Source: Nemertoderma westbladi
Taxonomy: Eukaryota; Animalia; Xenacoelomorpha
Assembly: GCA_032718475.1 (NCBI GenBank)
Contig: JAUCBJ010007511.1
Coordinates: 1-47,759, forward strand
Direction: 5' to 3'
Length of the DNA stretch: 47,759 nt
The notes below the pieces were generated by a model. The model was not told the origin of the DNA and ran no database searches. It worked only from the letters and a program-made list of their open reading frames with translations. Below are positions 4,339-46,483 of the stretch, one piece after another. A program made the position numbers and the translations under genes. The number at the start of each line of letters is the position of its first letter. Positions within the stretch are counted from its first letter, which is position 1.

Positions 4339-4572
4339 CATTAATGAGGTACACAAGCATTAATGAGGGACACAAGCATTAATGAGGGACACAAGCATTA
4401 ATGAGATACACAAACATTAATGAGGGACACAAACATTAATGAGGGACACAAACATTAATGAGGGACACAAGCATTAATGAGATACACAAACATTAATGAG
4501 GGACACAAGCATTAATGAGATACACAAACATTAATGAGGGACACAAACATTAATGAGGGACACAAACATTAA
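4339..4572 (+). repeat. 19-bp minisatellite, about 12 copies
   Basis: Unit CATTAATGAGGGACACAAA. Confidence 0.95.
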
Positions 4573-18131: not shown

Positions 18132-19583
18132 TTACTGGAGCGGCGACTCGGCCAGCCGGTTCCAGCAGTCGCGCTCCGCCGCGTAGGAGAAACTCAGGAA
18201 ATAGGGTTCCTCGTCGATTGACTCGAGGTGAGACTTCCCGCCAGGGGGCGTCAGTTGCACCGGCTCCCCGGTGAACTCGGCGTCGAAGTTTCGGACGTCC
18301 TCCGCCGAGGTAATCTGCGGTTTAAACGGCGGCGGGATCTGTCGCTTCTCGAGCAGCGAGAAGTCGATGCAGGAGAAGAATATGTGTCGTTTAACCTCCT
18401 CGACGTCGGTCTTTCCGCCGCCTAATCGCAGACGGGGATCGCGGTTTAGGAAACGGCTGAGGACGGAGCGAGCGTTGTCTGAGAGACGGGAGGGGAAGCG
18501 AAGATCGCTGGTCAGGATCTGTTCGAACAACAACTCGTGGTCCCGGTGGTAGAAGGGCAGGCGACCGCACATCATCTCATAGAGGACTACCCCGATGCCC
18601 CACCAGTCAACCGATCGGCCGTAGTCGTTGTCTTCCAGCACCTCTGGTGCGAGATACTCCGGGGTCCCGCAGAATGTCCGGGTCTTCGCGCCGTACGTGA
18701 TCTCCTCCTTGCAGAGGCCGAAGTCGGTGATCTTTATGTGGCCGTCCGAGTCCAGGAGGAGGTTCTCCAGTTTAAGATCTCGGTAGACAACCCCTTTACT
18801 GTGGAGATAACCCAGAGCGGAACAAATCTCTGCCCCGTAGAATCGAGAACGTTCCTCGGAGAACAAACGTTCCCGAGAGAGATGAAAGAACAGTTCCCCC
18901 CCGTTGCAGTACTCCATGACGAAGCAAAGACGATCTTTAGTCTGGAAAGAATATTTAAGTGCGGTGAGGAACGGATGCCTGGAGTTGCGCAGAACGCGGT
19001 TCTCTGTGAGGGTGTGTTCCACCTCGTCTTTCTGTAGAATTACTTCCTTCTTAAGGATTTTAATAGCGAATAAACTGCCAGTAACCTTTTCCCTGGCCAG
19101 CAAGACTTTCCCAAAAGTTCCTTTACCCAACATTTTTAACATCTCGAAATCTTCCAACGTCATCTTCTTCGACGGTCTTTGATCTGAGTCGGTGCTGGAT
19201 CTACCGTAGACCTTTTTGGTATCTTCCGCATCCTCCATGGCGCTGTCTGTAAGAGACTCGGCGACACTCGTTATAGCGTCAACCCACTCCTCACGTTCAG
19301 CATGGGATTCCACATGAAACATTCGCTCGATCAATGTTGTCATCTGTAGACATCGCACCAGGAAGGTATTGGCTCTAGGTTTTTCGGTTTTCATAACCTG
19401 ACATTTAGCGACGGAGAATGTGTTGAGAGGATCAAACTCCGATCCAGGAAGGGGTTTATCTTTGTAGCCAATAAATGAACCATCGTTTTTCAAATGAAAA
19501 TAACGCGGTCGCCAGTTTTTTATATATTCTCCCCGTTTCATTAGCCACCCTTCCTTCATTATAACCTCGGGGTCATCAGCCAT
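18132..19583 (-). CDS. AKT: RAC serine/threonine-protein kinase (AKT/PKB), intronless, 483 aa
   Basis: PH domain [20 protein letters not shown]; kinase motifs [34 protein letters not shown]; turn motif LTPP; hydrophobic motif FLSFSY. Confidence 0.98.
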
Positions 19584-21030: not shown

Positions 21031-22824
21031 GAGGTACAATAATTCGTAACCACCTTTAAACTCATCTTTATCTGTATGTATGTAGATTTGTCAAGAACCT
21101 AACAGAAACGTCAAAACGTAGTTACTGTACGGCTAGTATGATAAGCCGCACAAAGCAATAATGTCTAAAATATCATGATTAACAGAGACACTGAGGCAGT
21201 GGCCCCATCGCATCGCGGTCAATTAATATCTCCCTCCTCTCAGCGAATTAATTTCCTAACTCAATGTTAAATTATCAATTATAGTCTACCTGCCAACTCC
21301 CGAAAATTAAGTTTAGATGGCATTTTTTGTTAATGGTTGGCATCCACCTGATTTTTGTACTTCAAGACATGGCGAATCCAGCTAGGCCGGATGCCACCTC
21401 TGCATTTTTGATTTAATGCCTTTTTTTGGTCTTCAAAGTTTTTTGCTCAAAAATGTGTTTTTGCAATTTTAGGATACAAGTTCATGGTGAATGTTAGTGA
21501 ATCTCGTCTCATAACCAGTGTATAAATTGAAAGTTAATCAAAATGCATCAATGTTGTCCTGAAACTGTTATAAACACTTTGGTAAAGAAGAAAATTTCCG
21601 AAATTCCCTTGCAGTCCGCCAACCCGGCCCTAGTAACCGCCTTAGCAACAGATTTATGAAATTTAAATTATCAATTTCTTTGTCTCACCTTTCCTTTTCC
21701 TGAGAAAATCAACAAACAGTTTTAAAAATAAAAAAACCCATCACACAACTTATATAACATCTTGGGAACACATCAAGGGCAATATATAATCAAATAGCGT
21801 CCAATGTCGCAGACACAGACCCATTATTTGGACCAGAGTAATTTTCACAAGTATCAAAATATTAAGTTTAAGTGGAGAATTCGTGTACCTTTACTCAACT
21901 ATTTGCTTATATATTTGTAATTATTTGAAAATATCACTACAGCTAAGAAGCATGGTGATACTTCCCGTCATATTGTACACATTCGGGTGACATTTACAGT
22001 CCACGTTACCATAGCAACAGACCAAATAAGACAATTTAACAAGAATATAATTTACAGTATAACTATAATGCAGTATTCCCTAGGCCTACCTTACTAGAGT
22101 TTGAGAGATTAAATGTAACACACGTCGCATAGCTATAACCTTCGACTGTTAGTCAACATCCTATCGTGACTTGGGGGAAAATTGTTTAATATAAATATGA
22201 ATTTTAAAGTATCTCATGCGTTCATTGAGGAGACCTACAGTGAATAGTTAACTCACTCTAAATTCTGCTACGATATTAGTTTTGCAACAGGCAGGTACAT
22301 CACACTATGCACCGTCGAGACAGGGAGGGGGCACAAATCCCCTTTCTGTTTTTATTTTGTTTTTATTTCAATTATTTTTTCTCAATGTTAAATTATCAAT
22401 TTAGGGAAAGGACCAGTTTACAATGGCACGTTATTCCAACCAAAACAATAAACGAATCTTAATAGAACAGATTGAAGTTTAATTTTTGAGAGTAATCGGG
22501 TGTTATTTGCATCGATTTTCCCCTGGAGAGGGATCAATTATGATTGCGTTGAAAGACCCCACCCCCCCTCTCTGTCACCTTAAATATCGACCTACCTAAC
22601 AGTAATGTTTCTTTCACTTTGAGATTGATTTTCACTATCACTTGCATCTGCCTATTATTATTATGACTTGATGGAAATGGATGATGACGAACATATTCCT
22701 ACTATTAAAAGGAAAACTTGCCCGAATGAGGTTTGTGACGAGACATGCATAGTATATGGAGCAAAGAAAGATGAGCTATTAAGAATTGCTTCAGTTGACG
22801 GAAAGTTAAAATTAAAGGTGTCAG

Positions 22825-25325: not shown

Positions 25326-25716
25326 CGCCAGACCGTCCTACGGACATCTTGCCCCACCCCGCAGGGTTGGTGGCATTAGGTTCATAGAGGGCCAGTCGGG
25401 ACCTACCGGTAGCCTTATCTGGGAGTCCCGGTCTGAGTCGGACATACCTGTACTGAGGGAGGCCCTGACTGTCAGATCACACCCTTACCGGTACTACACC
25501 TCACGGCCTATATCCCTGGTTCGTTGAGTACCTACCGTCATAGGTTTTACCTCACCTAGTTAGTTAGGCCTATCATTTGTTGTTTATTGTTTACCTTTAC
25601 CATAGCAGGATATTTACCACCCTGTCTATCGCTTATTATACGATTGGATTATAGCCTATCTTCCTATTAGCATTCCTATTACCACTCAGCCAAGTGGCGA
25701 CTTTACCACCTTGGCG
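25326..25716 (+). repeat. 5' LTR (391 bp)
   Basis: CGCCAGACC...ACCTTGGCG, direct repeat of 29439-29829 with two differences spotted. Confidence 0.96.
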
Positions 25717-25730
25717 TGGTGGCAGCGGTG
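25717..25730 (+). promoter_or_regulatory. Primer binding site, tRNA-Leu
   Basis: TGGTGGCAGCGGTG is complementary to the eukaryotic tRNA-Leu 3' end CACCGCTGCCA-CCA. Confidence 0.85.
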
Positions 25731-25801
25731 TACGATTATTCGAATCCCTCCTGAATACCAACCCACGGTACCGGTACCGGCTGTCTAATTACGGATAAAA
25801 G

Positions 25802-28800
25802 ATGGCCGCACTCAAAACACCACGCCTAAACCCCTTATCTAAAACCGAATCGATAAACTCTTTTGAAGCTTGGCGTCAAACACTAATATATAGCTTATCA
25901 CTCGACCCAGAATTCGCACGATTCACTGCCGATGGAGTTCGATGGACCAAAACATCGCCAGCCCATCCGACCCGCGGCCTTGTAGGCGACGGAGACAATA
26001 TCCCCGCCACTCAGCGGCGCACCGCACAGCAGAAAGTTACTACTCTCAACCTACTACTAGGACAAATAGCAAACTATGCGCCTATAATTTCACGTAACTC
26101 AATTATACACTCATCCACGTCACTGAACTTTATCTGGCAGGCCTTGCGCCTTCATTACGGTTTCGAGTCGTCTGGCTCACACCTTCTCGACTTCGCCGCT
26201 ATACAGCTTGAACACGAAGAGCGACCCAAAGACTTGTATCAAAGACTCGTCGCGTTCACCGACGACAACTTACTTACTGTCGATGGCGGTATATCTCATT
26301 GTGGCGAAGCCCCTATAGTTGACGAGGAGGTTTCCCCTTCTTTAGAAAACTTTATCGTCTTGACGTGGTTACGTTTAATAAACCCAGATTTTCCTCAACT
26401 CATCAAGCAACGATATGGCACAGAGTTGCGCTCCCGCACCCTAACATCCATGAAACAGGAAATCAGCCAGGCCCTGCCATCCCTACTCGATGAACTTCGC
26501 ACAAACGCCGATGTCCGAACTTTCCGCACTTTCACATCGTCTTCCACATCACGCGCCCCACCATCGGGTGCCCGCCGGAGCGGAGCACAAAGCTCCCGAG
26601 CCCAAACCACGAAAGTTTGCCCCCTCTGCCAACAGGCGAACCGCAGGGATACTGACCACTTCCTTAGCACCTGCCGTTTTCTACCTGAACAGGACCGCCG
26701 GTTCCTTGTTCGCACCCGCGTCGTCGAGGTAACTGACGATGAGGAGGAGTTGCCCGAGGAAACATACTATCCGGAAGAAGAAGGCTCTATCCCCGAATTG
26801 GCCCATAACTTTTCCCGCATGCTCGCTGCATTGGACCGTTGTAATCTGCGCTTATCTCCACGAAAGACATTTATATGCCCGGAGTCTACTACTATCCTTG
26901 GATGGAAGTGGAGTCGCGGCTCACTCGCCGCATCCCCCCATGTCGTGTCAACACTTGCTACGTGTACCACCCCCGGTACAGTTCGCGCATTGCGATCCTT
27001 TATCGGTTCGTACAAAATCCTCGCTCGGGTCCTTCCTCGATGCTCTGCACTAGTCGCCCCACTTGATGGATTAGTCAGTGGTCAACCTAGCGATCCAGTA
27101 GCCTGGGAGGAGGCCACCCTAACAGCTTTTCGCCGAGCACAGGCAGCACTGAAGACGTGCCGGACAATCGTCATTCCCCATCCATCTGACGAACTATTTA
27201 TCGTCACTGATGCTGCAACCAGCACAGATGGATTGGGTGCAATTCTGTACGCCAAACGCAACTCCACACTTCATCTCGCTGGATTTTACTCTGCAAAGCT
27301 CAAAACACATCAACGTGCTTGGTTCCCATGCGAAATGGAAGCCCTGGCTATAGCATCAGCCACCCATCACTTCGCACCATATCTGACTCAATCAACCACC
27401 CCATCAACCATCGTAACAGACAGCAAACCATGTGTGGAGGCATTCGCCAAGCTTAGCCGTGGCGCATACTCATCCAGCCCACGTCTAACCACATTCCTGG
27501 CGACACTCAGCCAACATAATATCGCTGTAGTCCATATCACCGGCATACGAAACCTTCCTGCCGACTTCCAAAGCCGACAAGCACCAACCTGCACCGATGG
27601 ACACTGCCAAGTGTGTAAGTTTGTCGAGGAGCTTTGCGAGGCACCCATCATTCGAGCGTCATACGATAATGCCAGTGCTGCATCATCCCGCCCACTATAT
27701 GCTACTCGCAGCACTTGGTTAGCCACTCAACAAGAGTGCCCCGATCTACGCCGCACAGCGGCGCACTTGTCACAGGGCACCCGCCCGTCAAAAAAAGAGA
27801 CATCCATCAGGGACATAAAGCGATATCTTGGCTGTGCTACTGTGGCCTCAGATGGACTTCTCGTTCGCCGCCAAATGGCTCCTTTTAACTCACCCCGGGA
27901 CCTTATTATTGTCCCCCGCCATGCCTTACCGGGATTACTTATGTCAATGCACCTAGAGTTACAGCACCCGTCCCGGGCCCAGCTTCGACTTACAGCTTTA
28001 CGATATTTCTGTGCCCTAGATATCGATCGCGCCCTAGTCGCAACGTCCACCAGTTGCGCCCAGTGTGTAGCTTTGCAGGCCGCCCCTCGAAGACCCATTC
28101 CCCAGACATCTGAAAAGCCACCAGACGTTATTGGAATCTCATTCGCTGCCGACGTCATCCGACAGAATAAACAGATGATACTCCTTATCCGGGAGACAGT
28201 TTCATCTTACACAGCAGCAACACTTATCCCAGACGAGCGCCACGAAACATTGCGGGACACCCTATTGTGTCTTTGCATTGGACGTTACCCAATCGCAGGC
28301 CCCTGCGCCGTGATACGCACCGACCCGGCCCCCGGCTTCCGCACACTGTGTGAAGACAAAACTCTCCTGGCTCACAACCTCAACATCCAGTTAGGAGACG
28401 CGAAAAACGTTAATAAAAACCCGGTAGCGGAGCACACAATACGAGAGCTCGAAGAGGAGCTATTGAAGCTTCACCCAACCGGAGGACCGTACTCAGCCGT
28501 ATCCATTGCTATCGCCATCGCCCAGTTAAACTCACGAATTCGCGCATCCGGTCTGTCAGCTAAAGAAGTTTTTAGCCAGAGGGATCAATTCACTGGGGAA
28601 CAACTCCCAATGTCCGACAACGACCTCATTACATCTCAACATCGGTCCCAGCTAGCCAATCACGAGCCCAGCACTATATCGAAGTCACGTGGTGGCCAAC
28701 GAATTAAAGTGTCCCCTCCGATCGGTATTGGCGATTTAGTCCACCTTTATAGTGATCAACGGAAATTACATGGACGTCCACGTTATATTGTTTCCGCTGT

Positions 28801-29173
28801 CGATGCGGACTATGTCAGTGTCCGCAAATTCTCAGGTTCACAACTACGCGCACGAGCATACCGTGTCCTCCGCTCTGAGTGTTTCCGCGTACCATACCAT
28901 CAGTCTCCAGTTCTAAGTCAATTTAATCAATCATCCGAGGACGATGATGACACGTCCTACGTCGAAGCCTCACCTGTCAACCCACCTCAGCACCCTCAGG
29001 ATGACCCGGGTTTCAGTCCAATGGCTCCACTCGAGTCCCCGTTGAGTTTGTCTCCCCCTCGTCCTAACAACACTGTTACTGATGACGGACTTAATATGGA
29101 GCCTCTTACCCGAGCCCACCGCAGAAGGCAGCCTCCTGATTATTACGGATTCCCTAGGGACAACGGATTGTAA
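25802..29173 (+). CDS. Gag fused to RT C-terminus, RNase H and integrase; protease and RT core missing
   Basis: Gag with CPLC..H...C; RNase H VTDAA, CEMEALA, TDSKP, ADFQSR; integrase H..H/C..C, ADV, RTDP, NKNPVAE; no D(T/S)G or YxDD motif. Confidence 0.88.
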   Translation: MAALKTPRLNPLSKTESINSFEAWRQTLIYSLSLDPEFARFTADGVRWTKTSPAHPTRGLVGDGDNIPATQRRTAQQKVTTLNLLLGQIANYAPIISRNSIIHSSTSLNFIWQALRLHYGFESSGSHLLDFAAIQLEHEERPKDLYQRLVAFTDDNLLTVDGGISHCGEAPIVDEEVSPSLENFIVLTWLRLINPDFPQLIKQRYGTELRSRTLTSMKQEISQALPSLLDELRTNADVRTFRTFTSSSTSRAPPSGARRSGAQSSRAQTTKVCPLCQQANRRDTDHFLSTCRFLPEQDRRFLVRTRVVEVTDDEEELPEETYYPEEEGSIPELAHNFSRMLAALDRCNLRLSPRKTFICPESTTILGWKWSRGSLAASPHVVSTLATCTTPGTVRALRSFIGSYKILARVLPRCSALVAPLDGLVSGQPSDPVAWEEATLTAFRRAQAALKTCRTIVIPHPSDELFIVTDAATSTDGLGAILYAKRNSTLHLAGFYSAKLKTHQRAWFPCEMEALAIASATHHFAPYLTQSTTPSTIVTDSKPCVEAFAKLSRGAYSSSPRLTTFLATLSQHNIAVVHITGIRNLPADFQSRQAPTCTDGHCQVCKFVEELCEAPIIRASYDNASAASSRPLYATRSTWLATQQECPDLRRTAAHLSQGTRPSKKETSIRDIKRYLGCATVASDGLLVRRQMAPFNSPRDLIIVPRHALPGLLMSMHLELQHPSRAQLRLTALRYFCALDIDRALVATSTSCAQCVALQAAPRRPIPQTSEKPPDVIGISFAADVIRQNKQMILLIRETVSSYTAATLIPDERHETLRDTLLCLCIGRYPIAGPCAVIRTDPAPGFRTLCEDKTLLAHNLNIQLGDAKNVNKNPVAEHTIRELEEELLKLHPTGGPYSAVSIAIAIAQLNSRIRASGLSAKEVFSQRDQFTGEQLPMSDNDLITSQHRSQLANHEPSTISKSRGGQRIKVSPPIGIGDLVHLYSDQRKLHGRPRYIVSAVDADYVSVRKFSGSQLRARAYRVLRSECFRVPYHQSPVLSQFNQSSEDDDDTSYVEASPVNPPQHPQDDPGFSPMAPLESPLSLSPPRPNNTVTDDGLNMEPLTRAHRRRQPPDYYGFPRDNGL

Positions 29174-29438
29174 CTCATGTAGTGAGCCTAATATCCCTAG
29201 TACTACTTATAGCTTTAAAACTGATATAGTAAAGTCCGCCCGACTGTACAACTGAAACTGAAAGTTAATCCCGTCACTAGCAAGTCATTTCACAAACTTA
29301 TATCTAAAACGTGACGTAAGTCGTTCAAACTGAAAGTACATGGTGTAGCTGTGTCAATATTAGTCTGATTGATAGTGATTTAATATTGTGTTGTGCAGTA
29401 CCACCAGAATAGGAAGGTAAAAAGGTCGAAGGAGGTCG

Positions 29439-29829
29439 CGCCAGACCGTCCTACGGACATCTTGCCCCACCCCGCAGGGTTGGTGGCATTAGGTTCATAG
29501 AGGGCCAGTCGGGACCTACCGGTAGCCTTATCTGGGAGTCCCGGTCTGAGTCGGACATACCTGTACCGAGGGAGGCCCTGACTGTCAGATCACACCCTTA
29601 CCGGTACTACACCTCACGACCTATATCCCTGGTTCGTTGAGTACCTACCGTCATAGGTTTTACCTCACCTAGTTAGTTAGGCCTATCATTTGTTGTTTAT
29701 TGTTTACCTTTACCATAGCAGGATATTTACCACCCTGTCTATCGCTTATTATACGATTGGATTATAGCCTATCTTCCTATTAGCATTCCTATTACCACTC
29801 AGCCAAGTGGCGACTTTACCACCTTGGCG
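29439..29829 (+). repeat. 3' LTR (391 bp)
   Basis: Direct repeat of 25326-25716, preceded by purine-rich tract 29411-29435. Confidence 0.96.
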
Positions 29830-31720
29830 CTCAAAAATTAAACTTCTATCTGTTCTGTTGATATTCGTTTATTGTTTTGTTCCGAATAACCTGCCACTGT
29901 AAACTGCTCCTTTCCTTAAATTGATAATTTAACATTGATACAAAATATTAATTCGCCGAAAAGGGATTCCCCCCCCCCCCCCCCCCCCCCCCCTCCCCTG
30001 TCTCGACGGTGCATAGTGTGATGCATCTGACTGCTCCAAAACTAATATCTTATCAGAATTTAGATTGAGTTAACTATTGACTTTAGGTCTCGATAAACGC
30101 CTGAGATACTTTAAAATTCATATTTGTACTAAACAATACCCCCCCAAGTCACGATATGATGTTGACTAACAGTCGAAGGTTATAGCTATGCGACGTGTGT
30201 TACATTTAATCTCTCAAAACTCTGGTAAGGTAGGCCTAGGGAATACTGCATTATAGTTATACTGTAAATTAAATTCTTGTTAAATTGTCTTATTTGGTCT
30301 GTTGCTATGGTAACGTGGACTGTAAATGTCACCCGAATGTGTACAATATGACGGGAAGTATCACCATGCTTCTTAGCTGTAGTGATATTTTCAAATAATT
30401 ACAAATATAGAAGCAAATAGTTGAGTAAAGGTACACGAATTCTCCACTTAAACTTAATATTTTGATACTTGTGTAAATTACTCTGGTCCAAATAATGGGC
30501 CTGTGTCTGCGACATTGGACGCTATTTGATTTTATATTGCCCTTGATGTGTTCCCAAGATGTCATATAAGTTGTGTGATGGGTTTTTTGATTTTTAAAAC
30601 TGTTTGTTGATTTTCTCAGGAAAAGGAAAGGTGAGACAAAGAAATTGATAATTTAAATTTCATAAATCTGTTGCTAAGGCGGTTACTAGGCCCGGGTTGC
30701 CGGACTGCAATGGAATTTCGGAAATTTTCTTCTTTACCAAAGTGTTTATAACAGTTTCAGGACAACATTGATGCATTTTGATTAACTTTCAATTTATACA
30801 CTGGTTATGAGACGAGATTCACTAACATTCACCATGAACTTGTATCCTAAAATTGAAAAAACACATTTTTGAGCAAAAAACTTTGAAGCCCAAAAAAAGG
30901 CATTAAATCAAAAATGCAGAGGTGGCATCCGGCCTAGCTGGATTCGCCATGTCTTGAAGTACAAAAATCAGGTGGATGCCAACCATTAACAAAAAATGCC
31001 ATCTAAACTTAATTTTCGGGAGTTGGCAGGTAGACTATTAAGGGAAAGGAGCAGGTTACAGTATTCTAACCAAACCAGAACAATAAACGACAATTAATAG
31101 AACACGTCACAGTTTTACTGTAATTTAGAAGATTATTAACAGCTGTTTTTGCTTCGATTTTCCCCTGATGGAGATGGTTGAATTTTAGTGGCGTGGTCAC
31201 AAGTGCAATGAGTAGGCCTATATTGAAGCAGTCGCTAGTTGTAAATATGGTATACGTAGAAACCACCATACGTTAAAGAACACTGCAGTACGACTGGTGC
31301 TAGTACGACTGAACACCATTTTTTCGACTCCTGTATGTAAAGATTGAAAGTGAATCGGGACTCACCCACTAAGATACACGGAGGTCAAACTACAGTACTA
31401 CTGTTTCAGATTTCACACTATTTTAGAATGTTGTAATCCTTAAAAACATCTATACAGAAAATATATATACAACTGTAAAATATTTATATCTACAGTAGTT
31501 GTATGGAATAAATTTAGCACTACCAAATCGCCATAGCGAAATATTTTCCAACTTTATATCGCAGTGGGAATTTATTTCTCAGTATGTCCCTACGCCATAC
31601 ATTTATACTATGTTTTTGTTTGTCGAGTATGTCACAGCGTCATTCTAAATATAATCACATGACGTCATTCGAATACACACTATAACTATTTGACAATTCT
31701 AAAACTTACAAAATTAAAAT

Positions 31721-32363: not shown

Positions 32364-33624
32364 CAGTGGCGGCGTTAGGGCCCCCCGAACCCCCCGATCG
32401 GGGGGGGGGGGGGGGGGCGCAGGGCGAGCACGCAGGGGCCCCGAGCACGCAGGGGCCCCGAGCACGCCGGGGTCCAGAGCACGCCGGGGCCCCGAGCACG
32501 CCGGTGTCCAGAGCACGCCGGGGCCCCGAGCACACCAGGGCCCCACATAGCCAATACTTCAATATGAGCCATGGCAACAGAGCCAGACCAAAGGGGCTGG
32601 GTGAGTTAGGTATACTCAGGGGCGCGTCTAGGGGGGGGGGGGGTATGGGGCTCGATTCCCCCCCCCCCCTCCCCCACCCCCTCCAAACTGCATGGGCATG
32701 GCCTGTCTATTTGAGAACGTTTATTTGGGTATTGTATTAGTTTAATTTTGAGCTTGGGTTGAACATAATTCGATGAAAGGCAGTGTTATAGTACTATTCG
32801 CTTTGTACGCGATTAAATCCAGATATCCCACGACATAGAAACAACGTTACATAAACAACGTTACAGAAACGTTACATAGACGGTCTTTTCTAACCAAAAC
32901 AATAAACGATAAAATTACCAATTGAAGGAAAGGGGCAGGTTACATAGACGGTCTTTTCTAACCAAAACAACAAACGATAAAATTACCAATTGAGGGAAAG
33001 GGGCAGGTTACAGAGGCGAGTTTTTCTAACCAAAACAATAAGCAGTTACAATACAAAATGAGAAAAAAGAGCAGGTAACATAACAATTGAGGGAAAGGAG
33101 CAGGTAACAGAGGCAGGCTATTCTAATCAAATCAATAAACAGTTACAATACAAAATGCGAAAAAATAGCACGTAACAAAAAACGGGCTTTTCTAACTACA
33201 GTATTTAATATAATTATTTAACATTGAAAAAGGCAGCATCTGGATTTAACTTAAAGATATAATTATTTGTAGGGTTTTTCGCAATTTCAAATTTGGGGAG
33301 TCATCTCAGCCTAAGGTGAGTGTTCTCAGCCTAGGCTGAGATAACTGGGGAGTGTTCTCAGCCTAGGCTGAGACGACTGAGGAGTGTTCTCAGCCTAGGC
33401 TGAGATAACTGGGGTGTTATTTCAAGAGGGAGTTATCTCAGCCTTGTACACCCCCCCCCCCCCCCCCCTCCCATCCCCCATCCTCACACACTGGGGGGGG
33501 GGGGGGGGCATGCAGGAGCTCCTTTTTTCTTCTTCCTCGGGACCAATTTTGTTTGTTTAGAGGCCCTATTTTTTTTATTTCGGGGGGGGGGGGGGGGGGG
33601 GCGCAGACCCTAACGCCGGCACTG
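32364..33624. mobile_element. hAT-type non-autonomous element (MITE)
   Basis: TIRs CAGTGGCGGCGTTAGGG / CCCTAACGCCGGCACTG; perfect 8-bp TSD GTCACAAT (32356-32363, 33625-33632). Confidence 0.92.
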
Positions 33625-35608
33625 GTCACAATCATATTGTGACCAAAGCAAGGACGTGATTGTGACACATCGACAGCACATGATATTAACGTGACACAAA
33701 TGATATTAAGTGTACTGTAGCTTCAGCTATCACGACAACTTAAATATCATCACCGGCATACATTTTGCCATAACCCTTGCTCTTGCATACCGGTAGTGCA
33801 TCTGCATACGCAACGCAGCCCAAAAATGATGACGTAACCCTCTTCGTTTAATTTCTTTGTAAATCTCATAATTTATAACCCTTTTACTCAACAATTCATG
33901 AATAATACCAATTTGGGAGAAATTTACCGAACATTATCTCACTGATAAATGATCATCTGTTGTATATTTCTTTTGTTCTTATAGGTCCTTATTACGATTT
34001 GTGCTATAATTATTCTTATGTATTGTGTACTATGCTGTTTAGTTGATTATTTTTCTTTTTGTTCTGTTATCACATATGTAGTCTGTACCCGGGTTGCCGG
34101 TGTATGATAATAACAATTAATAATAATAATAATAATAAAACAACCTCATTTATTTACTAATTTCTGTCTGGTCATTAAAGATTTATATCTCACATATATA
34201 GAACCATTCATAGACAGATAGACCATGCCTGATTAGGGCTGGGTCACACATGAGCTTTCAACCATGACCTACATACTATAGATACGACCCGCCCTGCTGC
34301 TACAAAGCCCCTAAATTTAGTGGGCCAGTTATTTCTCTTAGATAGAACCCCTGAAACAATATGTCTAGCGCAGCGAAAGAACTCGACCCTGACTAAAATT
34401 ATGTCCTCTTTCAGATGAGACAAATAAAAATTTAATAGCTACAGTAGTTTTCGAGATATGAGGAGTTCTTGGCACCCATACCATATCAACACCTTTAGGA
34501 ATTGATAAAATTACACAAAATACATCACACTTCAAATACTTTGATATAACCATTAAACCATACTATGCTTTTTGTTTTGTTGAATTCATTATTAGTAATC
34601 GAAAGCAAGATTAGAAGTAAAATTTTCATTTTTTTTAATAGATATTAAAAGATCTCCAAAAGTGCAAGTACTGTACAGTAGCACTTTTTTCAAAAGTGGT
34701 AAAGTTGCCCTACAGTTTGGCTACTGAGGTTTTAAAATGTGCTGATTTCAGATAGGGGGGGAAACTGGACGCAATAAAAATCATCCCTCTCCAGGGGAAA
34801 TTCGACGCAAATAGCTTATGATTACGCTCAAAAATAAAACTTTAACCTGTTCCATTGTATTTAGTTTATTGTTTTGGTTAAAATAACGTACCACTGTAAC
34901 CTACCAGCCAGGATTAAGAAAAACTCAGTTTCACCATCTGGAGAGAGTACCTGTGCTTCTGTGTCACAATATAACAATCCAATGCCAGCAACCATATAAT
35001 ACATATAATGTTGATAGAATAATATCGAAATTTTTTAAAAATAAAACTATTCATTATATAATTGCTTGGACATAAAATAGTGCTTTACTTTCTTTGATGA
35101 GGTGGCCTCGAGAAGTACAGTATAATTTACTAAGATGAAAGATCAAAGGGTCATTTATACGTCAAGGGGGTCATTAGGGAAAATATATATTTTATTTTCA
35201 AGTAATACATACAGTTACGCAATTTTACTCCAAGCAATTATTACCTTTTTGCAGCTTAAAAGTTCGAGATATTTTCATGAAAATTTAATCAATGGCTTCG
35301 AATCCATCGGTAGGTTAGACTTTCAAAGTCACTACCGGTACCATACGATTGACCACGGTAGCTTATTACAGTATGTCCCGGTATGTTAAAAAGACACTTG
35401 CAAAAATTTATGAAACTAGAACTGAATCTGAAACCATTTTTTTTGGGAACTTGATCTGAAATAAATAGCTTTCCTTTATTAGAACTGAAACTAGAACTGA
35501 AACAAAATTATTATTTTTTGGGAAAAAATGTTCTAGAAATGATTTTAAATTCCCCTCCAATAAATCTGCAAATTGTACTGGTGTACATGAATAAAATATA
35601 TATTACAG

Positions 35609-36060
35609 TGTAAAGGTTTGGACGTTGTCTTTGTTATGATGAAAATAATATAGTTTTGGTTCTGGTTTTTAATGTCTAACTTTCAACTAATTATTACGGT
35701 CTCCAAATATAACTTTACCGGTAATTAAATCTATTCTATTTCTCTTTCTCTCTCTCTCTTAATGAAAGTTACATGCAATATTTAAGCAAGCTAGTGTTAG
35801 TGGTTTCTTGCAGCAGACATGTGAGATGTCACTCTGATAAATATCTGTTTAATTGACATCTACTGTATAAGGGCTATTATTGAGACTACATCTGTTTTGC
35901 ACATGAAATCAACATGCTGTATCTTAAGTAAATAAATAAGGTGTTTTGCTTTGTAGAAAGATAGGTAAAATGTCTCGACTAACAATTTTATGAAAATACT
36001 AAATTTGATTTTGTGATTAAATTATTTCTAAGCTTCCTTGACTATTCGGCATGCACTACA
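35609..36060 (-). repeat. 3' LTR (452 bp)
   Basis: Direct repeat of 40244-40695 with about four differences spotted; adjacent PPT GGGGGGAGATG (minus strand) at 36061-36071. Confidence 0.96.
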
Positions 36061-36100
36061 CATCTCCCCCCATTAAGTTATGGAATAAGAATAACTAAAA

Positions 36101-39100
36101 CTAAGAGTCAAAGAAATGTACTTGCTTTCCGCTTCTAGTAGTAATGATGTTTCGCGGTTGAGATTGTGAGTTATTTTCTTTGTTAGTTTTACTATGTAAT
36201 ATCTTATGAGGTTTTAGTTTCTTGGTTGGAGGGGGTTTCTTATTAACGTTACCGGTATAACAAGGTTTTAAGCGGTCGATTGATATTCGTTGTTCTCCTC
36301 TAAGAGTTTCGATAGAGAAATGTTTATCCGTTCTGCTGAGAACTGTAAATGGTCCTTGGTAAGGCGCTTCTAATGGTTTGCGGACCCGATCGATTCTAAC
36401 GAAAACTTTGTCACAAGTCTTTAATTGTGGTGGTAAGTATGTTTTCAACTTTGGCTTGCTCTCTTGGTAATCAGGAGCTTTACTGTCTACAGCAAATCCT
36501 ATTTCCGTTATATGCTTGTGAAGTGTCTTTACAAAGTCATAATTAAAAGTTGTATCTTTAGTAGTTAGTAAACAAGCTGGCAACAACGGCTGTGTTCCCG
36601 TTACCAATTCAAATGGAGATACATTAGTAACGCTAGATGGCGTTATTCTGTGACTGAAAATAACTATTGGTAAGGACTCTAACCAATCTGATTTCCGTGC
36701 TTTGAGTGCAGCCTTTAAAACTTTATGGAATCGTTCTATTTTTCCGTTACTCTGGGGGTGGTAAGATGTGGTACGCATACGGTGGAAACCAATCAGCTTA
36801 GAGAGTTCAGCTAGTAATTCAGATTCAAATTGACCACCGCGATCTGTTGTGAGGTAAAGGGGCACTCCAAATCGAGAAAACCAGACTTTTATAAATGCAG
36901 TCGCTGTGGCAACAGCTGTGATTGACGTAACTGGCTCTGCTTCTACCCACCCAGTGTGTCGATCTATGAACGTTACTACGTGTCGATATTGGTGCTCACC
37001 CATGTCTAGTGGACCAATGATATCTGAATGGATATGTGTGAAACGTGGTGCCAAAGGAAATGGTGTTAGGGGTGTTTTTGTGTGTTGTATTACTTTACTT
37101 GCTTGACAAGATGTGCACAATTTACACCATTCCACTATGTCGCGTTTAGCATTTGGCCAAATATAACGATCAGTTATTATGCATATGGTCGATTTAATTC
37201 CTGGATGTGACATGTTGTGTAGTTCATTGAATACTGTTCGTCTACATGAATCTGGTAGGATGGGTCTAGGGTATGCAGTAGTTACGTCGCACTTAATAAC
37301 TTTACCATTTGCTAATGGAAATGTTTTAATATTTAGCGAATGATCTTCAGGAAGGATTAAATTGGCTGACTGTTGAGAGGCAATATCTTCCAATCCAAAA
37401 GAATCAATACTAATTGAAGCGATTTGACGTGATAAAGTATCAGCGACTATGTTACTTTCTCCTGCAATGTATTCAATGGAGTCAATGTATTCAGAAAGGA
37501 ATGAAAGCTGGCGGTTTTGTCTAGGAGAAATGTTCGATGGTTTGTTGAATGCAGACGTAAGTGGTTTGTGGTCTGTGAATATAGTAACCTGTCGGCCTTC
37601 TAAGTTACTGCGGAAGTGCACTGTAGCTTGATATGCCGCAAGTAATTCTCGATCAAAGGTTGACCATGAGGTTTCATTTGGTGTTAATCGTCGAGAGTAA
37701 AATGCAATGGGGACTGATTCTTCTTCTGATATTACTTCGTGAAGAGAAGCTGCGATAGCGTCCTTTGAAGCATCAGTGGTTAGAATCAGCTTACAATCCT
37801 CTGATGAAGGATGATGTAATAAAACTGCGTTAGATAATGAGTTTTTCAACTTCTGGAAAGTTTCTTTGTGTTCCGATGTCCATTCACCTTCATTGAAGTT
37901 TCGTTGTGGTTGTTTACGTTTCAGTGGTTGAGTTTTGTTTAAGAGAGATTGAAGGGGTGCTACAATCTGACTGAAATAAGGTCTGTGTCGTCGAGAGAAT
38001 CCAAACATTCCCAGAACCCGTCGCAACTCAGTATAGCTACGTGGTTCTGGCATATCGACAAGGGATTTAACTCGTTTAGGTGGAGGTAAAATACCGTCGG
38101 CCGTCACTAAGAATCCAAGAAATAAGATTGATGGTTGTACCCATTGGCACTTGGCAAAGTTTATTTGCAGGTTGTGCTGAGTTAAACGTTCAAATACCTT
38201 TCTTAGGTGAATGTAATGAGTTGATATATCCTTAGAGTGTATCATAATATCATCGAGAAAAGGAAATACAAATTCCAAATCTCCGAGTACTTCATGTATA
38301 TCCCTTTGAAAAGTTTGTGCAGCGTTTTTAAGACCATCGGGCATCCGTAAAAATTCAAAGAGACCAAAAGGGGTTGTAATAGCTGTCTTTGGAATATCTT
38401 CCTCTGCCACAGGAATTTGATGGTATGCTTTAACGAGATCAATGGAGCTGAAAACTGTCGAACCTTTCAGTTTGCTATTAAAATGCTGTATGTGCGGCAG
38501 CGGATATTTATCACTTTGTGTAATGCGGTTCAAAGCTCTATAGTCTCCACATGGACGCCAATTATCAGTACTTCCCACCTTTGGTACCATATGTAATGGT
38601 GACGCCCAGGGACTACTTGAAGGGCGTATTATACCACGAGAACGCATATCCGCGAAAACTTGTTGAGCAATTAGTAGTTTGGTCCCACTAAGTTGACGTG
38701 GCTTTGCGTATGTGGGTTGGCATTGGTTGGTGATAATTCGATGCACAGTATTGTGTGGAGGTGTGTCGGTATGAATAATATCATAATCAAACAACTTAGA
38801 ATGTTCTTTGAAAAGACTGGATAATGTTGAATCAGGGTGGTCGATTTCCACTTTGAATATAGATAGACTTTTCGATGTAGTTGGATTGAGATTGCATTTC
38901 AGTTTTGTATAATTATCCACGATTAGTTTATTTTTGCAGTCCAATAGCATGTCATAATTTGATAAGAAATCCAATCCCCAAATGTTTTCTTCAACGTCGG
39001 CAACATAAAATATCCAAGGAAATTCTCGTCGGAGGAAATTAATTCGGACGTGAACTTTTCCGTGGACATTTATGTTATTGCCTGAAATTGCTGTGAGTTT

Positions 39101-39292
39101 TGCATCCGTATTGTCCCATAGTAAGCTTCTAATAAACGAGGAAGGTTTTAGTATGGATACTTGTGAGCCGGTGTCTATAAGAAAAGATAAGGATTGGTGG
39201 CTGTTGTTTATAGGGTTTATTGCTGCGGTTAATTTGAAAACGGCAGCTCCCTCAGAACTAGCAGCAAATGTTCTGAGGGCAGTTAGTTTTCC
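36101..39292 (-). CDS. Gypsy Pol (protease, RT, RNase H, integrase), entered by -1 frameshift
   Basis: Frame of the listed 36101-38974 ORF stays open upstream through [10 protein letters not shown] to the gag end; [46 protein letters not shown]. Confidence 0.92.
39220..39292 (-). promoter_or_regulatory. Programmed -1 ribosomal frameshift signal (slippery site plus stem/pseudoknot)
   Basis: G GAA AAC at the gag end, 6-nt spacer, 10-bp stem CCCTCAGAAC/GTTCTGAGGG, loop TTGCTGC complementary to downstream GCAGCAA. Confidence 0.8.
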
Positions 39293-40140
39293 TGCCCCTG
39301 GGTATCAGGGGAAGGAGATGATGAGCGCGATGCAGGGCGTGAGTTTGGTCGGGAAGATGGTTGCATTCGACGCGGTTTTTCTCCCGGCCAAATACACCAT
39401 GGCGTGCATGTATTCGCTTTTGTTCCATAATATACATGGTATCGGCAGATTTTTGGCCGTTGTCCTTCGCTGAACGGGAATATAGCTCCGACTTTTGAGG
39501 TAGAAGTGACAGGGTAGGGTGCTCTTGCTCTGTAAGTGTTGCTAACACCTCTGTAAACATCACCACTGGTATTAACATAGTTTGGGTGTTGAACTCTGGC
39601 GACATCATATGAAGTACTTGGTTGAGGGATTCCACTTGTAAATTGGAGGATGGTGTCCGCCAGTGTTGCGAAATCTTCGGGTGGTACACCCTGATGAGCA
39701 ATCAAAGCAGAACGCACCGATACTGGAAGTGCTTGTAAGAGTTTGTGCCGAACTAGGTCGTCATCCGCCGTTAAGTTACATTCTCGTAATTTTCTTTTTA
39801 TACGCAGATACACTAAGGAGGGCTTTTGGCCGTCTAAAGTTACCTGTCCAAGGGCTTCCTCCAATAATTCAGTTTTCGATTTCTGATAGAGTTGGAGAAT
39901 GGTAGATTTAATATCGTCATATGATTGAATGTCCGTGGAAATGTTTAAAGCGACGTCTTCTGGCAAATTCGCCATAACGTGGTGAAATTTGGTTACCTCG
40001 CTTGTAATGTTGGCTAATGTAAAGTGGGATTCCAACATTCTGAACCAAACGCTGGGGTTAGAACGGAAGAACACCGGGGGTTTAACGGAAACGCGAGCGA
40101 CGTTTACAGCGTTACCAACATTTTCGCCGTCACCATCCAT
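39283..40140 (-). CDS. Gypsy Gag, 285 aa
   Basis: [16 protein letters not shown]-terminus and C-X2-H-X9-C-X3-C motif [18 protein letters not shown]. Confidence 0.92.
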
Positions 40141-40230
40141 GATGTATTCGATAAGAGTTAATCATAGTAACTGAGTTTCGAGAGAGTTTTTCCCATCTGG
40201 AGTTGAAGGTAGTAGTAATAAGGTCCAAGA

Positions 40231-40242
40231 TCCGGGTCACCA
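40231..40242 (-). promoter_or_regulatory. Primer binding site, probably tRNA-Trp
   Basis: TGGTGACCCGGA one base from the 5' LTR; near match to the tRNA-Trp complement TGGTGACCCCGA. Confidence 0.7.
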
Positions 40243-40243
40243 A

Positions 40244-40695
40244 TGTAAAGGTTTGGACGTTGTCTTTGTTATGATGAAAATAATATAGTTTTGGTTCTGG
40301 TTTTTAATGTCTAACTTTCAACTAATTATTACGGTCTCCAAATATAACTTTACCGGTAATTAAATCTATTCTATTTCTCTTTCTCTCTCTCTCTTAATGA
40401 AAGTTACATGCAATATTTAAGCAAGCTAGTGTTAGTGGTTTCTTGCAGCAGACATGTGAGATGTCACTCTGATAAATATCTTTTTAATTGACATCTACTG
40501 TATAAGGGCTATTATTGAGACTACATCTGTTTTGCACATGAAATCAACATGCTGTATCTTAAGTAAATAAATAAGGTGTTTTGCTTTGTAGAAATATAGG
40601 TAAAATGTCTCGACTAAGAATTTTATGAAAATACTAAATTTGATTTTGTGATTAAATTATTTCTAAGCTTCCTTGACAATTCGGCATGCACTACA
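40244..40695 (-). repeat. 5' LTR (452 bp)
   Basis: Direct repeat of 35609-36060. Confidence 0.96.
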
Positions 40696-41614: not shown

Positions 41615-42817
41615 TTATGCGTATCTAATAGTGTTAACGGCGGCAGGTGGCGGGATCAGTCGCTTCTCGAGCAGAGAAAAGTCGATGCAGGAGAAGAATA
41701 TGTGGCGTTTAACCTCCTCGACATCGGTCTTTCCGCCGCCTAATCGCAGACGGGGATCGCGGTTTAAGAACTGATTTAGGACGGAGCGAGCATTGTCTGA
41801 GAGACATGAGGGGAAGTGAAGATCGCTGGTCTGGATCTGTTCGCACAACAGCTCGTGGTCCCGGTGGTAGGAGGGAAGATGACCGCACATCATCTCATAA
41901 AGGATAACTCCGATACCCCACCAGTCAACTGAACGGCCGTAGTCATTGTTTTCCAGCACCTCTGGTGCGAGATACTCCGGAATCCCACAGAATGTCGCAT
42001 CGTATGTGATCTCCTCCTTGCAGAGGCCGAAGTTGGTGATCTTTATGTGGCCGTCCGAGTCCAGGAGGAGGTTCTCCAGTTTAAGATCCCCATAGACAAC
42101 CCCTTTACTGTGGAGGTAGCCCATAGTGGAACAAATCTCAGCCCCATAGAATCGAGAACATTCCTCGGAGAACAAACAACCCCGAGAGAGATGGAAGAAC
42201 AGTTCCCCCCCATTGCAGTACTCCATGACGAAGCAAAGAAATTCTTTAGTCTGGAAGGAATATTTAACTGCGGTGAGGAACGGATGTCTGGAGGAGCGCA
42301 GAATGCAGTTCTCTATGAGGGTGTGTTCCACCTCGTCTTCCTGTAGAATTACTTTCTTCTTAAGGATTTTAACTTTGAATAAACTCCCTGTATCCTTTTC
42401 CCTGACCAGCTGGAATGACCCGAAAGTTCCTTTACCCAACATTTTTAACATCTCGAAATCTTCCAACGTCATTTTCTTTGATGGTCTTTGATGAAGAGAC
42501 TCAGCAACACTCGCTATAGCGTCAACCCACTCCTCACGCTCGGCGTAGGATTTCACATGCAACATTCGCTCAATTAATGATGTCATATGTAGACATCGCA
42601 CCATGAAGATGTTTGGTTTTTCGGCTTTCATAACCTGACATTTAGAGAAGGAGTATGTGTGGAGAGGATCAAATTCCGATTCATCAAGGGGATATTTGTA
42701 GCCAATAAATGAACCATCGTTTTTCAAATAAAAATAGCGCGGTCGCCAGTTTTTTATATATTTTCCACGTTTCATTAGCCATCCTTCCTTTATTATAACC
42801 TCGGGATCATCAGCCAT
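41615..42817 (-). CDS. AKT: AKT paralogue, 400 aa; predicted pseudokinase or young pseudogene with open frame
   Basis: Collinear with 18132-19583; KRGEY->KRGKY, YRD->YGD, DFG->NFG, GTPEY->GIPEY; four in-frame deletions; homology stops after IPPP so turn and hydrophobic motifs are absent. Confidence 0.8.
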
Positions 42818-42884
42818 TGTACAAATTCAATAAGATACAGTTTATAATTTACCAGTATTAACCAAGAGACTTTAGCGCTGGGAC

Positions 42885-44159: not shown

Positions 44160-44660
44160 TACTGTGACAAAATGTTTACTTTAAAATCAAAATTAATAAA
44201 CTGAAAGGTGTACTTTACTTGGCACTGGCAGTTAGTGAAGGCCTAATTGAACAATACATAAAATAGATTAGATGATTAGTCTGATAGAGGAAATTACAGT
44301 ATTATACATAAATTTGACCTACATGTATATAACAATAAATTTAAGCATTGCCTTTGAATAAAACAGAATGCTATAAACTGTAAACCTTACAGTATGCCAA
44401 AACTTTATATTTATTTAGGATTATTGTTGTAAATACTAGACTACTGTATTAGTATCAGATACAGGGAAGGGAGTCAGAGATAGATATGTCAAGTCCTAAT
44501 AATGATGCACAACTGACTGTTTGAGTGTTAGGGATGAGGGATGGGCTATCAGTTTGGATTAGATTGCTCATTTTGTACAAATTTTAATAAATCAAATCCA
44601 AACTGTAAACAGATTCACAAAACCAACTCTTTATAATTGATTAATTATAATTCATAAAGG
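44160..44660. repeat. Upstream block duplicated from 20435-21030
   Basis: Same shared strings as 20435-21030; a further short match 46068-46121 to 21074-21130. Confidence 0.9.
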
Positions 44661-46483
44661 TACATATAATGTCAGTGTATCCACCAAAGAAGGTTAGTGT
44701 TGCTTACAGGTGGATACAAAGCGATGGTGGTAATACACAGTTTCTGGTAAGAGTTTCTGGCATTGCTGGTGCAAGCGGAGGCTTCCTATCTAGCTGGGAT
44801 CTTTGAGTGTAAAACAACTGTAGTCGTCTTTCTATCTTTACTTTCATAATATTCAAATATTATAAATAAAGCAGACAGACAGATAACCAGTTAAAAGCCC
44901 CAAAGTCCGGGTTTGAGTGAACCGTTTATCACAAACAAGACTGTAGCTAAGGTTGCCGTTACTACACCATTGTTTTGGTTAGAAAAAGCCGTCTGTGGCC
45001 TGCTCCTTTCCCTAAATTGGTAACTAAAATGGTTACTAACACAAATCTTATTGGGCCAACGTTGCACGCGGGCGAAGATTTCCCGTGGGCGAAGGTTGGA
45101 CGCGGGCGACGATACCCTATAGTACAGTAATACTATACTAATACAATATACAATACCTGGGGATAACACAGGGCCTCCCCAATACATCCTACTGTACGTA
45201 CACTGGTCAAGCAATTTAAACACAACACATTTACTGTATGGTATGGTAGATTAGACAACCACGTGATTTCCTTTTGTTTGGCCACTGGGCCTTAATTAAC
45301 CTGACCTTTGTGGGTAACAAACTTAGTGATAATTAAAGCTATCGACTGGACTATTAAGGTGATATATTGGTTTTTGGGTTACCGAAGTGCATATAGGAAT
45401 AATCCCGTAACATGTAATTCGTAATAACTATTTACATACTGTACTTCTATGTAAAGTAGCACTTTACAGTGTGATGTTTACAGTGTGCTTTGTTACATGA
45501 CCGAACGTAGTCTGTGAGTGAAAATAAAGCCACGAGGATCAGAACAATGTAAAGTACTTTGCAACAAGTATGTATGCAGTTTTATTCCAAAATTGTAACA
45601 TTACGAAATGATTGTATATATATTATAAGTGATAGAAACTGCACAAATTATATTACAGTAGTTGCTGTATAAATAAATGTAAAAATGAGATTATGTTACA
45701 AAATTATGTTATAAAAACGTTAGCTTATATTTATGGTTGCGTTTGGAGCCATGTTAATAGTTTATAGCTACTGGTTATCAATAGCTTCCAGTAAGTAATG
45801 CAATATGCGTATCTGGCTATCAGGCAATTAATAATAACTATTGTTTATGTGGTAACATATGACGGCGTGATTGTTAAGTAACGCCGTCATTGGTTACTAC
45901 ATAAACATGGGACATTACAACATCAATACAATACTAATGTACAGGCCAATACAATGTTCATGTCCTCTAAAGTTGTAAAGTGCTAAATAACAACTCGCCG
46001 TTAATACTAACGGCATTGAGTAATGTCACAATTTCAGAATAAACACCTTTAAACAATTATCTTTAAATGTATGTAGATTTGTCCAGACACCTAATATCAA
46101 AATAAAAACATAAATACTGTACTTATTTCGTTTATACCCATCCAGCTCTATACTGTAACCCTGCCTTTACATATATATGTACATGTACACCATGTCCTGG
46201 AATATAGTGTCGTAATTCAGTGACACGCCCCCCCCCCCCCCCTTCTAATTTTTCTACAAATCTTATGAGATTGCATGAAATTTGAAACAGAGATAGTTTC
46301 ACCTCCCGACCACTGGCTGGGTGAGCCAGAATTTTTACTTTTGCTTTCAATCTTTAGTTACAAGCGTTTAAAAAAAGTGTCTCCAGCGATATTACACCAG
46401 TTACACCGAAGTTATTCTTCTACCTTATAGCTGTTTGTTGGTACTGATATAAAGCTGGTCGGTCATGTAAGGATTCCAAATGT

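What the first reader, a model, noticed from the sequence alone, without database searches (positions are those of the whole stretch)
41615..42817. AKT duplicate combining an E17K-type PH domain with a predicted dead kinase: candidate natural decoy/dominant-negative AKT
Seen: residue 19 is Lys (AAA, 42761-42763) where the intact copy has Glu (GAA). DFG is NFG, YRD is YGD, the activation loop is shortened by 3 aa with GTPEY->GIPEY, the PH-kinase linker lost 22 aa, and the turn and hydrophobic motifs are gone. Known: this position corresponds to human AKT1 E17, where E17K gives PI3K-independent membrane binding, and the DFG Asp binds catalytic Mg2+. Inference: if expressed, this would be a constitutively membrane-bound inactive AKT able to compete with its neighbour for lipid, PDK1 or substrates.
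Basis: partly seen in the sequence, partly recalled or inferred. Interest (0 to 1): 0.85.

Follow-up and report, generated by a model that had tools for sequence, protein, structure and literature searches.

The report
Kinase-dead AKT twin, unlatched lipid sensor
An animal genome carries, 23 kb from its normal AKT growth-signalling gene, a second copy with an open reading frame that is predicted to be catalytically dead and has changes where human cancer mutations unlatch AKT's membrane-binding domain, so it may be a natural AKT decoy, but expression is untested and a decaying pseudogene is not excluded.

Summary
The 400-codon ORF is a tandem DNA duplicate of an intronless AKT 23 kb away; upstream non-coding blocks were copied too. 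E17K is joined by F55Y, Q79H, D323N, N53H, F358C and L362Q at activating or autoinhibitory-interface positions, while PIP3 ligands K14, R23, R25, R86 are kept. The frame looks selected: no stop (neutral P 0.007-0.04) and 4 of 4 internal indels in frame, against 6 of 29 in neighbouring non-coding or repeat pairs (P 0.005). Against: changes hit invariant and variable sites equally (27/185, 29/206), branch dN/dS is about 0.65-1, the interface tests are post hoc, and expression is untested. Akt1 V164F was not dominant-negative in cells, and E17K/kinase-dead AKT1 promoted survival, so 'decoy' is only one reading. Best: selected pseudokinase damping AKT at membranes (0.35); scaffold 0.2; pseudogene now 0.4 in two forms. 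The scan's notes hold no earlier AKT finding.

The parts
41615..42817 (-). Duplicate AKT ORF, 400 codons, no intron in the coding sequence
42506..42793 (-). PH domain (residues 9-104); K14, R23, R25, R86, Y18, I19 equivalents kept
   Evidence: Pfam PF00169, 62.9 bits; residue mapping
42761..42763 (-). K19 = AKT1 E17K
42653..42661 (-). H53 and Y55 = AKT1 N53H and F55Y
   Evidence: N53 in the interface list of PMC8379990; F55Y scored activating in PMC9018718
42587..42589 (-). H77 = AKT1 Q79H (Q79K is an activating hotspot)
   Evidence: PMC4826202
42493..42494 (-). Site of the 66-nt in-frame linker deletion; linker window 11 residues against 21-64 in 99 homologues
41693..42454 (-). Kinase-fold domain (residues 122-375), predicted inactive; K179, E198, D274, N279, T308 equivalents kept
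   Evidence: Pfam PF00069, 209 bits against 252 for the intact copy
42413..42415 (-). F135 = AKT1 V164F, C-spine residue of the ATP pocket
   Evidence: PMC12721161
42374..42376 (-). K148 = AKT1 A177K, second C-spine residue (all three bases differ)
42089..42091 (-). G243 = R273G (YRD to YGD)
42032..42034 (-). N262 = D292N (DFG to NFG), a CpG-type transition
41981..41983 (-). I279 = T312I, just after the 9-nt activation-loop deletion
41948..41950 (-). N290 = D323N, kinase side of the autoinhibitory interface
   Evidence: PMC8379990
41831..41845 (-). C325 and Q329 = F358C and L362Q, hydrophobic part of the autoinhibitory interface
   Evidence: PMC8379990
41615..41645 (-). Non-homologous 9-residue tail and stop; the AGC C-tail with turn and hydrophobic motifs is absent from this copy and found nowhere else in the window outside the intact gene
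42818..42856 (-). 39-nt leader shared with the intact copy (19584-19622)
44161..44631 (-). Two co-duplicated non-coding blocks (partners 20436-20621 and 20684-20970)
46040..46122 (-). Third co-linear non-coding block (partner 21047-21130)
18132..19583 (-). Intact AKT, 483 codons, parent-like copy with all catalytic and tail motifs
   Evidence: branch length 0 against 0.32 for the duplicate

Best explanation
This tandem AKT duplicate has an open frame that was likely kept by selection and encodes a protein predicted to be a folded pseudokinase with an unlatched PH domain, which, if expressed, would occupy PIP3/PIP2 membrane sites and likely damp the neighbouring active AKT. Shown: DNA-level duplication, open frame, the substitutions and their positions, all protein change on the duplicate's branch. 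Inferred from human AKT1 data: loss of catalysis (strong) and release of autoinhibition with retained lipid binding (moderate). Inferred from statistics on one pair: selection on the frame and fold (moderate). Untested: transcription, protein, localisation and the sign of the effect.
For: No stop codon where 3-5 are expected, P 0.007-0.044. 4 of 4 internal indels in frame against 6 of 29 in 12 non-coding or repeat pairs of the window, Fisher P 0.005; P 0.02 if the 3' junction counts as a frameshift. Expected frameshifts 3-20 by choice of control, none inside the domains. CpG transitions 15/59 synonymous against 12/102 non-synonymous, P 0.03. One of 32 invariant Gly/Pro changed and no new Pro, against 5-8 expected, P 0.002-0.03, post hoc. 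C-lobe depleted of changes, P 0.009, post hoc. 3 of 4 validated activating positions (E17, L52, Q79, D323; PMC4826202) changed, P 0.005-0.015; without E17 and with F55, 3 of 4, P 0.003-0.011; 5 of 15 interface residues listed in PMC8379990, P 0.013-0.058; all post hoc. AKT-specific kinase positions 14/72 changed against 10/92 AGC-wide, P 0.04. Disrupting D323/D325 or deleting the kinase domain promotes PH binding to PIP3 (PMC8379990); kinase-dead AKT1 sat constitutively at the plasma membrane (PMC4337624).
Against: Changes are spread evenly over conservation classes: 27/185 invariant against 29/206 other sites, P 0.89, as in neutral decay (simulated fraction 0.47, observed 0.48). Branch dN/dS from transitions is 0.65-0.97; the pairwise 0.27 is mostly two-branch synonymous change plus transition bias. 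Retention of the four PIP3 ligands is not significant (0 of 4, P 0.36-0.52), nor is the loss of 1 of 5 core catalytic residues. Mildness of substitutions is borderline only (P 0.07). Nine arginines are lost, many at CpG sites. N53H, V57F, F88L and the 2-residue loop deletion may weaken the PH domain. Akt1 V164F and A177F were not dominant-negative (PMC12721161).
Confidence: 0.35

Rival explanations
1. A pseudogene that has decayed neutrally since soon after duplication; its frame is open by luck and the cancer-like and pseudokinase-like changes are coincidences.
For: Even spread over conservation classes. Neutral rates predict 27 synonymous changes on the duplicate's branch, about half of the 58 seen. 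dN/dS up to 0.97. At least one critical kinase residue is lost in 85% of neutral simulations and E17K arises in 5.5%. Loss of CpG (o/e 0.87 against 1.11). Repeat fragments lie between the shared upstream blocks and the start codon.
Against: Joint chance of no stop and no internal frameshift is about 2e-6 to 4e-3 over the ranges tried; Gly/Pro retention and interface enrichment add to this.
Confidence: 0.25
2. An expressed pseudokinase with a positive, kinase-independent role: a membrane-held scaffold that supports survival or other signalling instead of blocking AKT.
For: AKT1 K179M and E17K/K179M protected cells from death in a PH- and lipid-dependent way (PMC4337624, passages). V164F-type mutants are designed to keep the kinase fold stable and were not dominant-negative in Akt1 (PMC12721161). 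Retention of the C-lobe and of Gly/Pro fits a binding role for the kinase fold better than a pure lipid sink.
Against: Tail lost and substrate-side surface changed (F349S, F358C, L362Q, R346H). Same lack of expression data and near-neutral dN/dS.
Confidence: 0.2
3. A once-translated, selected copy (for instance a hyperactive AKT that was then disarmed) that has recently lost all function and has not yet picked up a stop.
For: Would explain frame and fold signals together with CpG-type hits such as D292N and the Arg losses.
Against: The order of changes cannot be read from one pair; 27 invariant-site changes imply a long period without AKT-type constraint during which the frame still stayed open.
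Confidence: 0.15
4. A weakly active, lipid-deregulated kinase.
For: K179, E198, D274, K276, N279 and T308 equivalents are kept; very low activity is reported for some pseudokinases (PMC9988210, Introduction).
Against: V164F alone abolishes Akt1 activity (PMC12721161); D292A is used as kinase-inactivating (PMC7435276); A177K, R273G, T312I and loss of the hydrophobic motif add to it.
Confidence: 0.05

Closest known systems
AKT/PKB (RAC Ser/Thr kinases; PF00169 + PF00069 + PF00433; PDB 7APJ, 8UVY)
   Same: PH plus AGC kinase layout, 85% identity to the neighbouring intact AKT, 56-62% to 63 other AKTs, best PDB matches by sequence and fold are AKT1/2.
   Different: No C-tail, NFG, YGD, filled ATP pocket, linker shorter than in any of 99 homologues, seven changes at activating or interface positions.
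Engineered Akt1 C-spine pseudokinases V164F and A177F (Hodapp et al. 2025, PMC12721161; abstract and passages read)
   Same: Identical V164F change and a bulky residue at A177.
   Different: Natural; also unlatched and tail-less. The engineered mutants keep autoinhibition and were not dominant-negative.
Kinase-dead and E17K/K179M AKT1, AKT2 G161V (Vivanco et al. 2014, PMC4337624; passages read)
   Same: E17K PH domain on an inactive kinase; membrane-held.
   Different: Engineered or somatic alleles with a full tail; reported effect is pro-survival, not inhibitory.
Oncogenic AKT1 alleles E17K, F55Y, Q79K, D323H (PMC4826202 passages; PMC9018718 passages and section 7)
   Same: Two exact changes (E17K, F55Y) and two at the same position (Q79H, D323N).
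   Different: In tumours they act through a live kinase; Q79H and D323N themselves were not among the alleles I read about.
Kinase/pseudokinase paralogue pairs such as PSKH1/PSKH2 (PMC9988210; abstract and Introduction read)
   Same: A paralogue that lost a catalytic Asp beside a canonical partner.
   Different: PSKH2 is shown to be expressed and conserved across vertebrates; this copy is known from one sequence.
AKT3 splice form lacking S472 (as reviewed in PMC6873690; passages read)
   Same: Natural AKT form without the hydrophobic-motif site, reported to oppose tumour growth.
   Different: A splice variant with an intact catalytic domain and wild-type PH domain.

Membership tests
AKT/PKB kinases | N-terminal PH domain of AKT type with PIP3 ligands K14, R23, R25, R86 | tested here: met
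AKT/PKB kinases | Descent from an AKT gene | tested here: met
   Sister to the intact copy, SH-aLRT 100, quick tree of 39 rows
AKT/PKB kinases | Intact VAIK, HRD and DFG motifs | tested here: not met
   FKVK, YGD, NFG
AKT/PKB kinases | AGC C-tail with turn and hydrophobic motifs (PF00433) | tested here: not met
Pseudokinases | Lacks at least one canonical ATP-coordinating or catalytic residue (definition in PMC9988210) | tested here: met
   D292N plus V164F and A177K
Pseudokinases | Kinase fold retained | tested here: inconclusive
   Model pLDDT 79, kinase domain about 3 A from AKT structures, but the model is driven by an alignment of normal AKTs
Pseudokinases | Expressed as protein and lacking activity | not testable with these tools
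   Needs transcripts, proteomics and an assay
Pseudokinases | Maintained by purifying selection | tested here: inconclusive
   Frame tests say yes; site-class test and branch dN/dS do not; no orthologue found
Non-processed pseudogenes | Disabling stop or frameshift | tested here: not met
   None within PH or kinase domain; only the 3' truncation after the kinase domain
Non-processed pseudogenes | Neutral amino-acid evolution | tested here: inconclusive
   dN/dS 0.65-0.97 from transitions; CpG test 0.46, P 0.03
Retrocopies (processed duplicates) | Homology limited to the mRNA, no co-duplicated flanking DNA | tested here: not met
   Three co-linear non-coding blocks up to 3.3 kb upstream; the parent's coding sequence has no intron either
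Dominant-negative decoys | Lowers the output of the active paralogue when co-expressed | not testable with these tools
   Akt1 C-spine mutants failed this test in COS7 cells (PMC12721161); this protein is untested

The most novel reading that the evidence does not exclude
Selection has built a natural AKT decoy by the same moves that tumours and protein engineers use: it broke the PH-kinase latch at several human oncogenic positions (E17K, F55Y, Q79, D323), plugged the ATP pocket with the C-spine change V164F, cut the tail and kept the lipid-binding residues, giving an animal a dedicated germline-encoded competitor of its own AKT.
Probability: 0.25. Interest if true: 0.8.

Novelty: new variant of a known kind. 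Interest (0 to 1): 0.5.

Why it matters
Pseudokinases arising beside active paralogues are well known, but my searches found none described for AKT (open-access library only), and no protein with N at the DFG position among 384 fetched relatives aligned there. If expressed and selected, this copy would be a natural test of an open question: whether kinase-dead AKT acts as an inhibitor or has a positive non-catalytic role. It would also show germline use of cancer-type AKT changes made safe by a dead kinase. If silent, it is an ordinary decaying duplicate and a caution about reading known mutations into neutral change.

Tried and rejected
No whole genome is held for the window, so other AKT copies outside it are unknown. 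Sequencing runs: no RNA holder was listed; this is no evidence on expression, and no reads could be laid. No close relative: best full-length identity to the intact copy was 69% among the 120 listed hits, up to 76% for short fragments, and at most 65% to the duplicate among 150 representatives. Two exact DNA pattern scans of metagenome contigs gave 0 matches. Retrocopy origin rejected. Pairwise dN/dS 0.27 rejected as proof of selection, because it mixes both branches and ignores transition bias. In one search three T>A changes in multi-hit codons were booked under 'stop'; one search moved them to non-synonymous, with little change. A 7-nt slippage frameshift at the 3' junction is possible but not supported (shuffle P 0.10). 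Structure models cannot tell open from closed: neither the duplicate (rmsd 10.7 A to 7APJ) nor the intact control (8.4 A) was modelled closed. Excess double changes at codon positions 1+2 (6 against 2.2, P 0.02) may reflect site heterogeneity or multi-base events; not used. The tree's careful search did not finish, and it does not place the animal (long stem 0.78). The 2012 PH-kinase interface screen by Parikh et al. was not held under the id I recalled; PMC12638386 had none of the six terms sought. No complex prediction was run, since the claim is loss of binding.

Full report
Observation. The ORF at 41615-42817 (-) is open for 400 codons and is 85% identical in protein to a 483-codon AKT at 18132-19583 (-). 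Human AKT1 numbering below comes from an AKT1-type hit used as reference and agrees with the alignments to solved AKT1 chains.

Origin. Both coding sequences lack introns. Homology covers 39 nt of leader and three co-linear non-coding blocks further upstream, so this is a tandem DNA duplication, later spaced out by repeats, among them two elements with near-identical long direct repeats. Homology stops at 41646; the AKT tail occurs only in the intact copy. In a quick tree of the two copies and 37 chosen homologues they are sisters, with branch lengths 0 (intact) and 0.32 (duplicate). At 47 of 56 differing sites the intact residue is the commoner one among 99 homologues, at 6 the duplicate's, 3 tied (the 99 are the hits left after dropping the four top long hits and 17 others over 545 residues). 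No close relative or orthologue was found.

Catalysis. The duplicate has D292N, R273G, T312I, the loop deletion and no hydrophobic motif. It also has V164F and A177K. Hodapp et al. made Akt1 V164F and A177F to block ATP binding while keeping the fold; both were inactive, and neither was dominant-negative (PMC12721161, abstract and passages). D292A is used as kinase-inactivating (PMC7435276, passages). Among the 390 proteins fetched, 382 of 384 aligned at D292 have D and none N; 315 of 319 have V164 (one F); 323 of 324 have A177. K179, E198, D274, N279 and T308 are kept. A dead kinase is a strong inference.

PH domain and latch. PMC8379990 (passages) lists 15 interface residues; 5 are changed here (N53H, Q79H, D323N, F358C, L362Q), against 1.5-2.3 expected, P 0.013-0.058. 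It also describes an R273-T82 contact; both are changed. PMC4826202 (passages) names E17, L52, Q79 and D323 as the validated activating sites; 3 of 4 are changed (P 0.005-0.015). F55Y, scored activating in PMC9018718 (section 7), is present exactly. I noticed this pattern before fixing the lists, so these tests are post hoc. K14, R23, R25 and R86 are all kept, which is not significant (P 0.36-0.52). E17K leaves PIP3 affinity unchanged and raises PIP2 affinity about fivefold, still about 25-fold below PIP3 (PMC9417420, passages); loss of D323/D325 or of the kinase domain promotes PIP3 binding. So increased membrane occupancy is plausible, full PI3K independence is not shown, and N53H, V57F, F88L and a 2-residue deletion where 99 of 99 homologues keep the length could impair the domain.

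Is the frame under selection? For: neutral simulation on the intact sequence with class-specific rates expects 3-5 stops and gives none with P 0.007, 0.018 and 0.044 at 100%, 80% and 65% of the observed load. The four internal indels are 3, 6, 66 and 9 nt; 12 non-coding or repeat pairs in the window give 6 in-frame of 29 (Fisher P 0.005, or 0.02 counting the 3' junction as a frameshift). Depending on the control, 3-20 frameshifts are expected (P of none 0.04 to below 1e-4). CpG transitions are rarer at non-synonymous than synonymous sites (12/102 against 15/59, P 0.03), if the intact copy gained no CpG. One of 32 invariant Gly/Pro is changed and no Pro is gained (P 0.002-0.03), the C-lobe holds 20 of 56 changes against 50% expected (P 0.009), and AKT-specific positions are hit more than AGC-wide ones (14/72 against 10/92; P 0.04, using 116 of the 150 representatives); these three are post hoc.

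Against: changes fall on 27/185, 7/56, 8/54 and 14/96 sites from the most to the least conserved class, the neutral pattern. Pairwise dN/dS is 0.27, but neutral rates predict 27 synonymous changes on the duplicate's branch of 58 seen on both, and transition-based bounds for that branch are 0.65-0.97. BLOSUM and AGC-profile scores of the changes are only borderline milder than neutral (P 0.07). At this load 85% of neutral runs lose a critical kinase residue and 5.5% gain E17K. Controls for indels come from A+T-rich DNA, which may slip more than coding DNA. The finding was picked because its frame is open.

Reconciling. The two sets of results fit a protein whose frame and core are weakly kept while catalytic and latch surfaces are free or favoured to change. 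They also fit, with a joint chance of about 2e-6 to 4e-3 before ascertainment, a lucky pseudogene. My judgement: about 0.7 that selection kept the frame while these changes built up, about 0.6 that the copy works today. Given function, competition for membrane lipid and PDK1 access is the simplest role for a tail-less dead kinase with an exposed PH domain, but a positive scaffold role is a serious rival, since E17K/K179M AKT1 protected cells as well as E17K did (PMC4337624, passages) and C-spine mutants did not inhibit endogenous Akt.

Structure. The model of the duplicate has PH and kinase folds (pLDDT 79, pTM 0.67) and matches AKT structures best, but it leans on an alignment of normal AKTs, and the intact control (pLDDT 72) was not modelled closed either.

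Novelty. Five literature searches for a natural AKT pseudokinase or decoy gave 0, 0, 0, 16 and 112 papers; none of the 12 and 12 listed for the last two described one by title or abstract start. The library is open-access only and supplements were not read, so kinome tables that list such a copy could have been missed. The scan's own notes hold nothing on AKT by words, by sequence or near this place; notes on other pieces call the genome an unidentified animal, which I take as an unchecked lead. Verdict: a new variant of a known kind, a candidate AKT-derived pseudokinase, interest 0.5.

Noticed in passing
window 20684-20970 and 44327-44631: Co-duplicated non-coding block only 7% diverged (20/275), far below synonymous divergence (about 22%), with four 5-nt and one 10-nt extra stretches in the duplicate's copy. 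May be a constrained 5' exon or regulatory element; the 5-nt periodicity is unexplained.
   Followed up: partly
window 25326-29829: Element with 391-nt direct repeats (2 mismatches) and a 1123-codon ORF in which Pfam finds RNase H but no reverse transcriptase; the repeat-bounded unit begins CGCCA and ends TGGCG. Possibly an internally deleted or atypical LTR element.
   Followed up: partly
window 35606-40695: Young LTR retrotransposon between the two AKT copies: 455-nt repeats with 5 mismatches, DUF7041 ORF (39283-40140) and RT-RNase H-integrase ORF (36101-38950).
   Followed up: partly
window 21281-22490 and 29830-31038: Two inverted copies of a 1.2-kb repeat, 95% identical over aligned bases; no ORF of 100 codons lies in it.
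   Followed up: no
window 18132-19583: The intact AKT has no intron in its coding sequence, GC3 0.61 and CpG o/e 1.11 against 0.80 for the window, Met at the W80 position and a long stem branch (0.78).
   Followed up: partly
window 2878-3501, 4325-6196, 8006-8536, 9144-9790, 13199-14100, 32871-33177: Minisatellite arrays of 34, 19, 63, 68 and 57 nt; the 68-nt unit recurs as single copies across the window.
   Followed up: no
window 42410-42418 and 42371-42376: The V164F and A177K changes sit in clusters of several adjacent base changes (5 in 9 nt, 4 in 4 nt), so each may be one multi-base event.
   Followed up: partly
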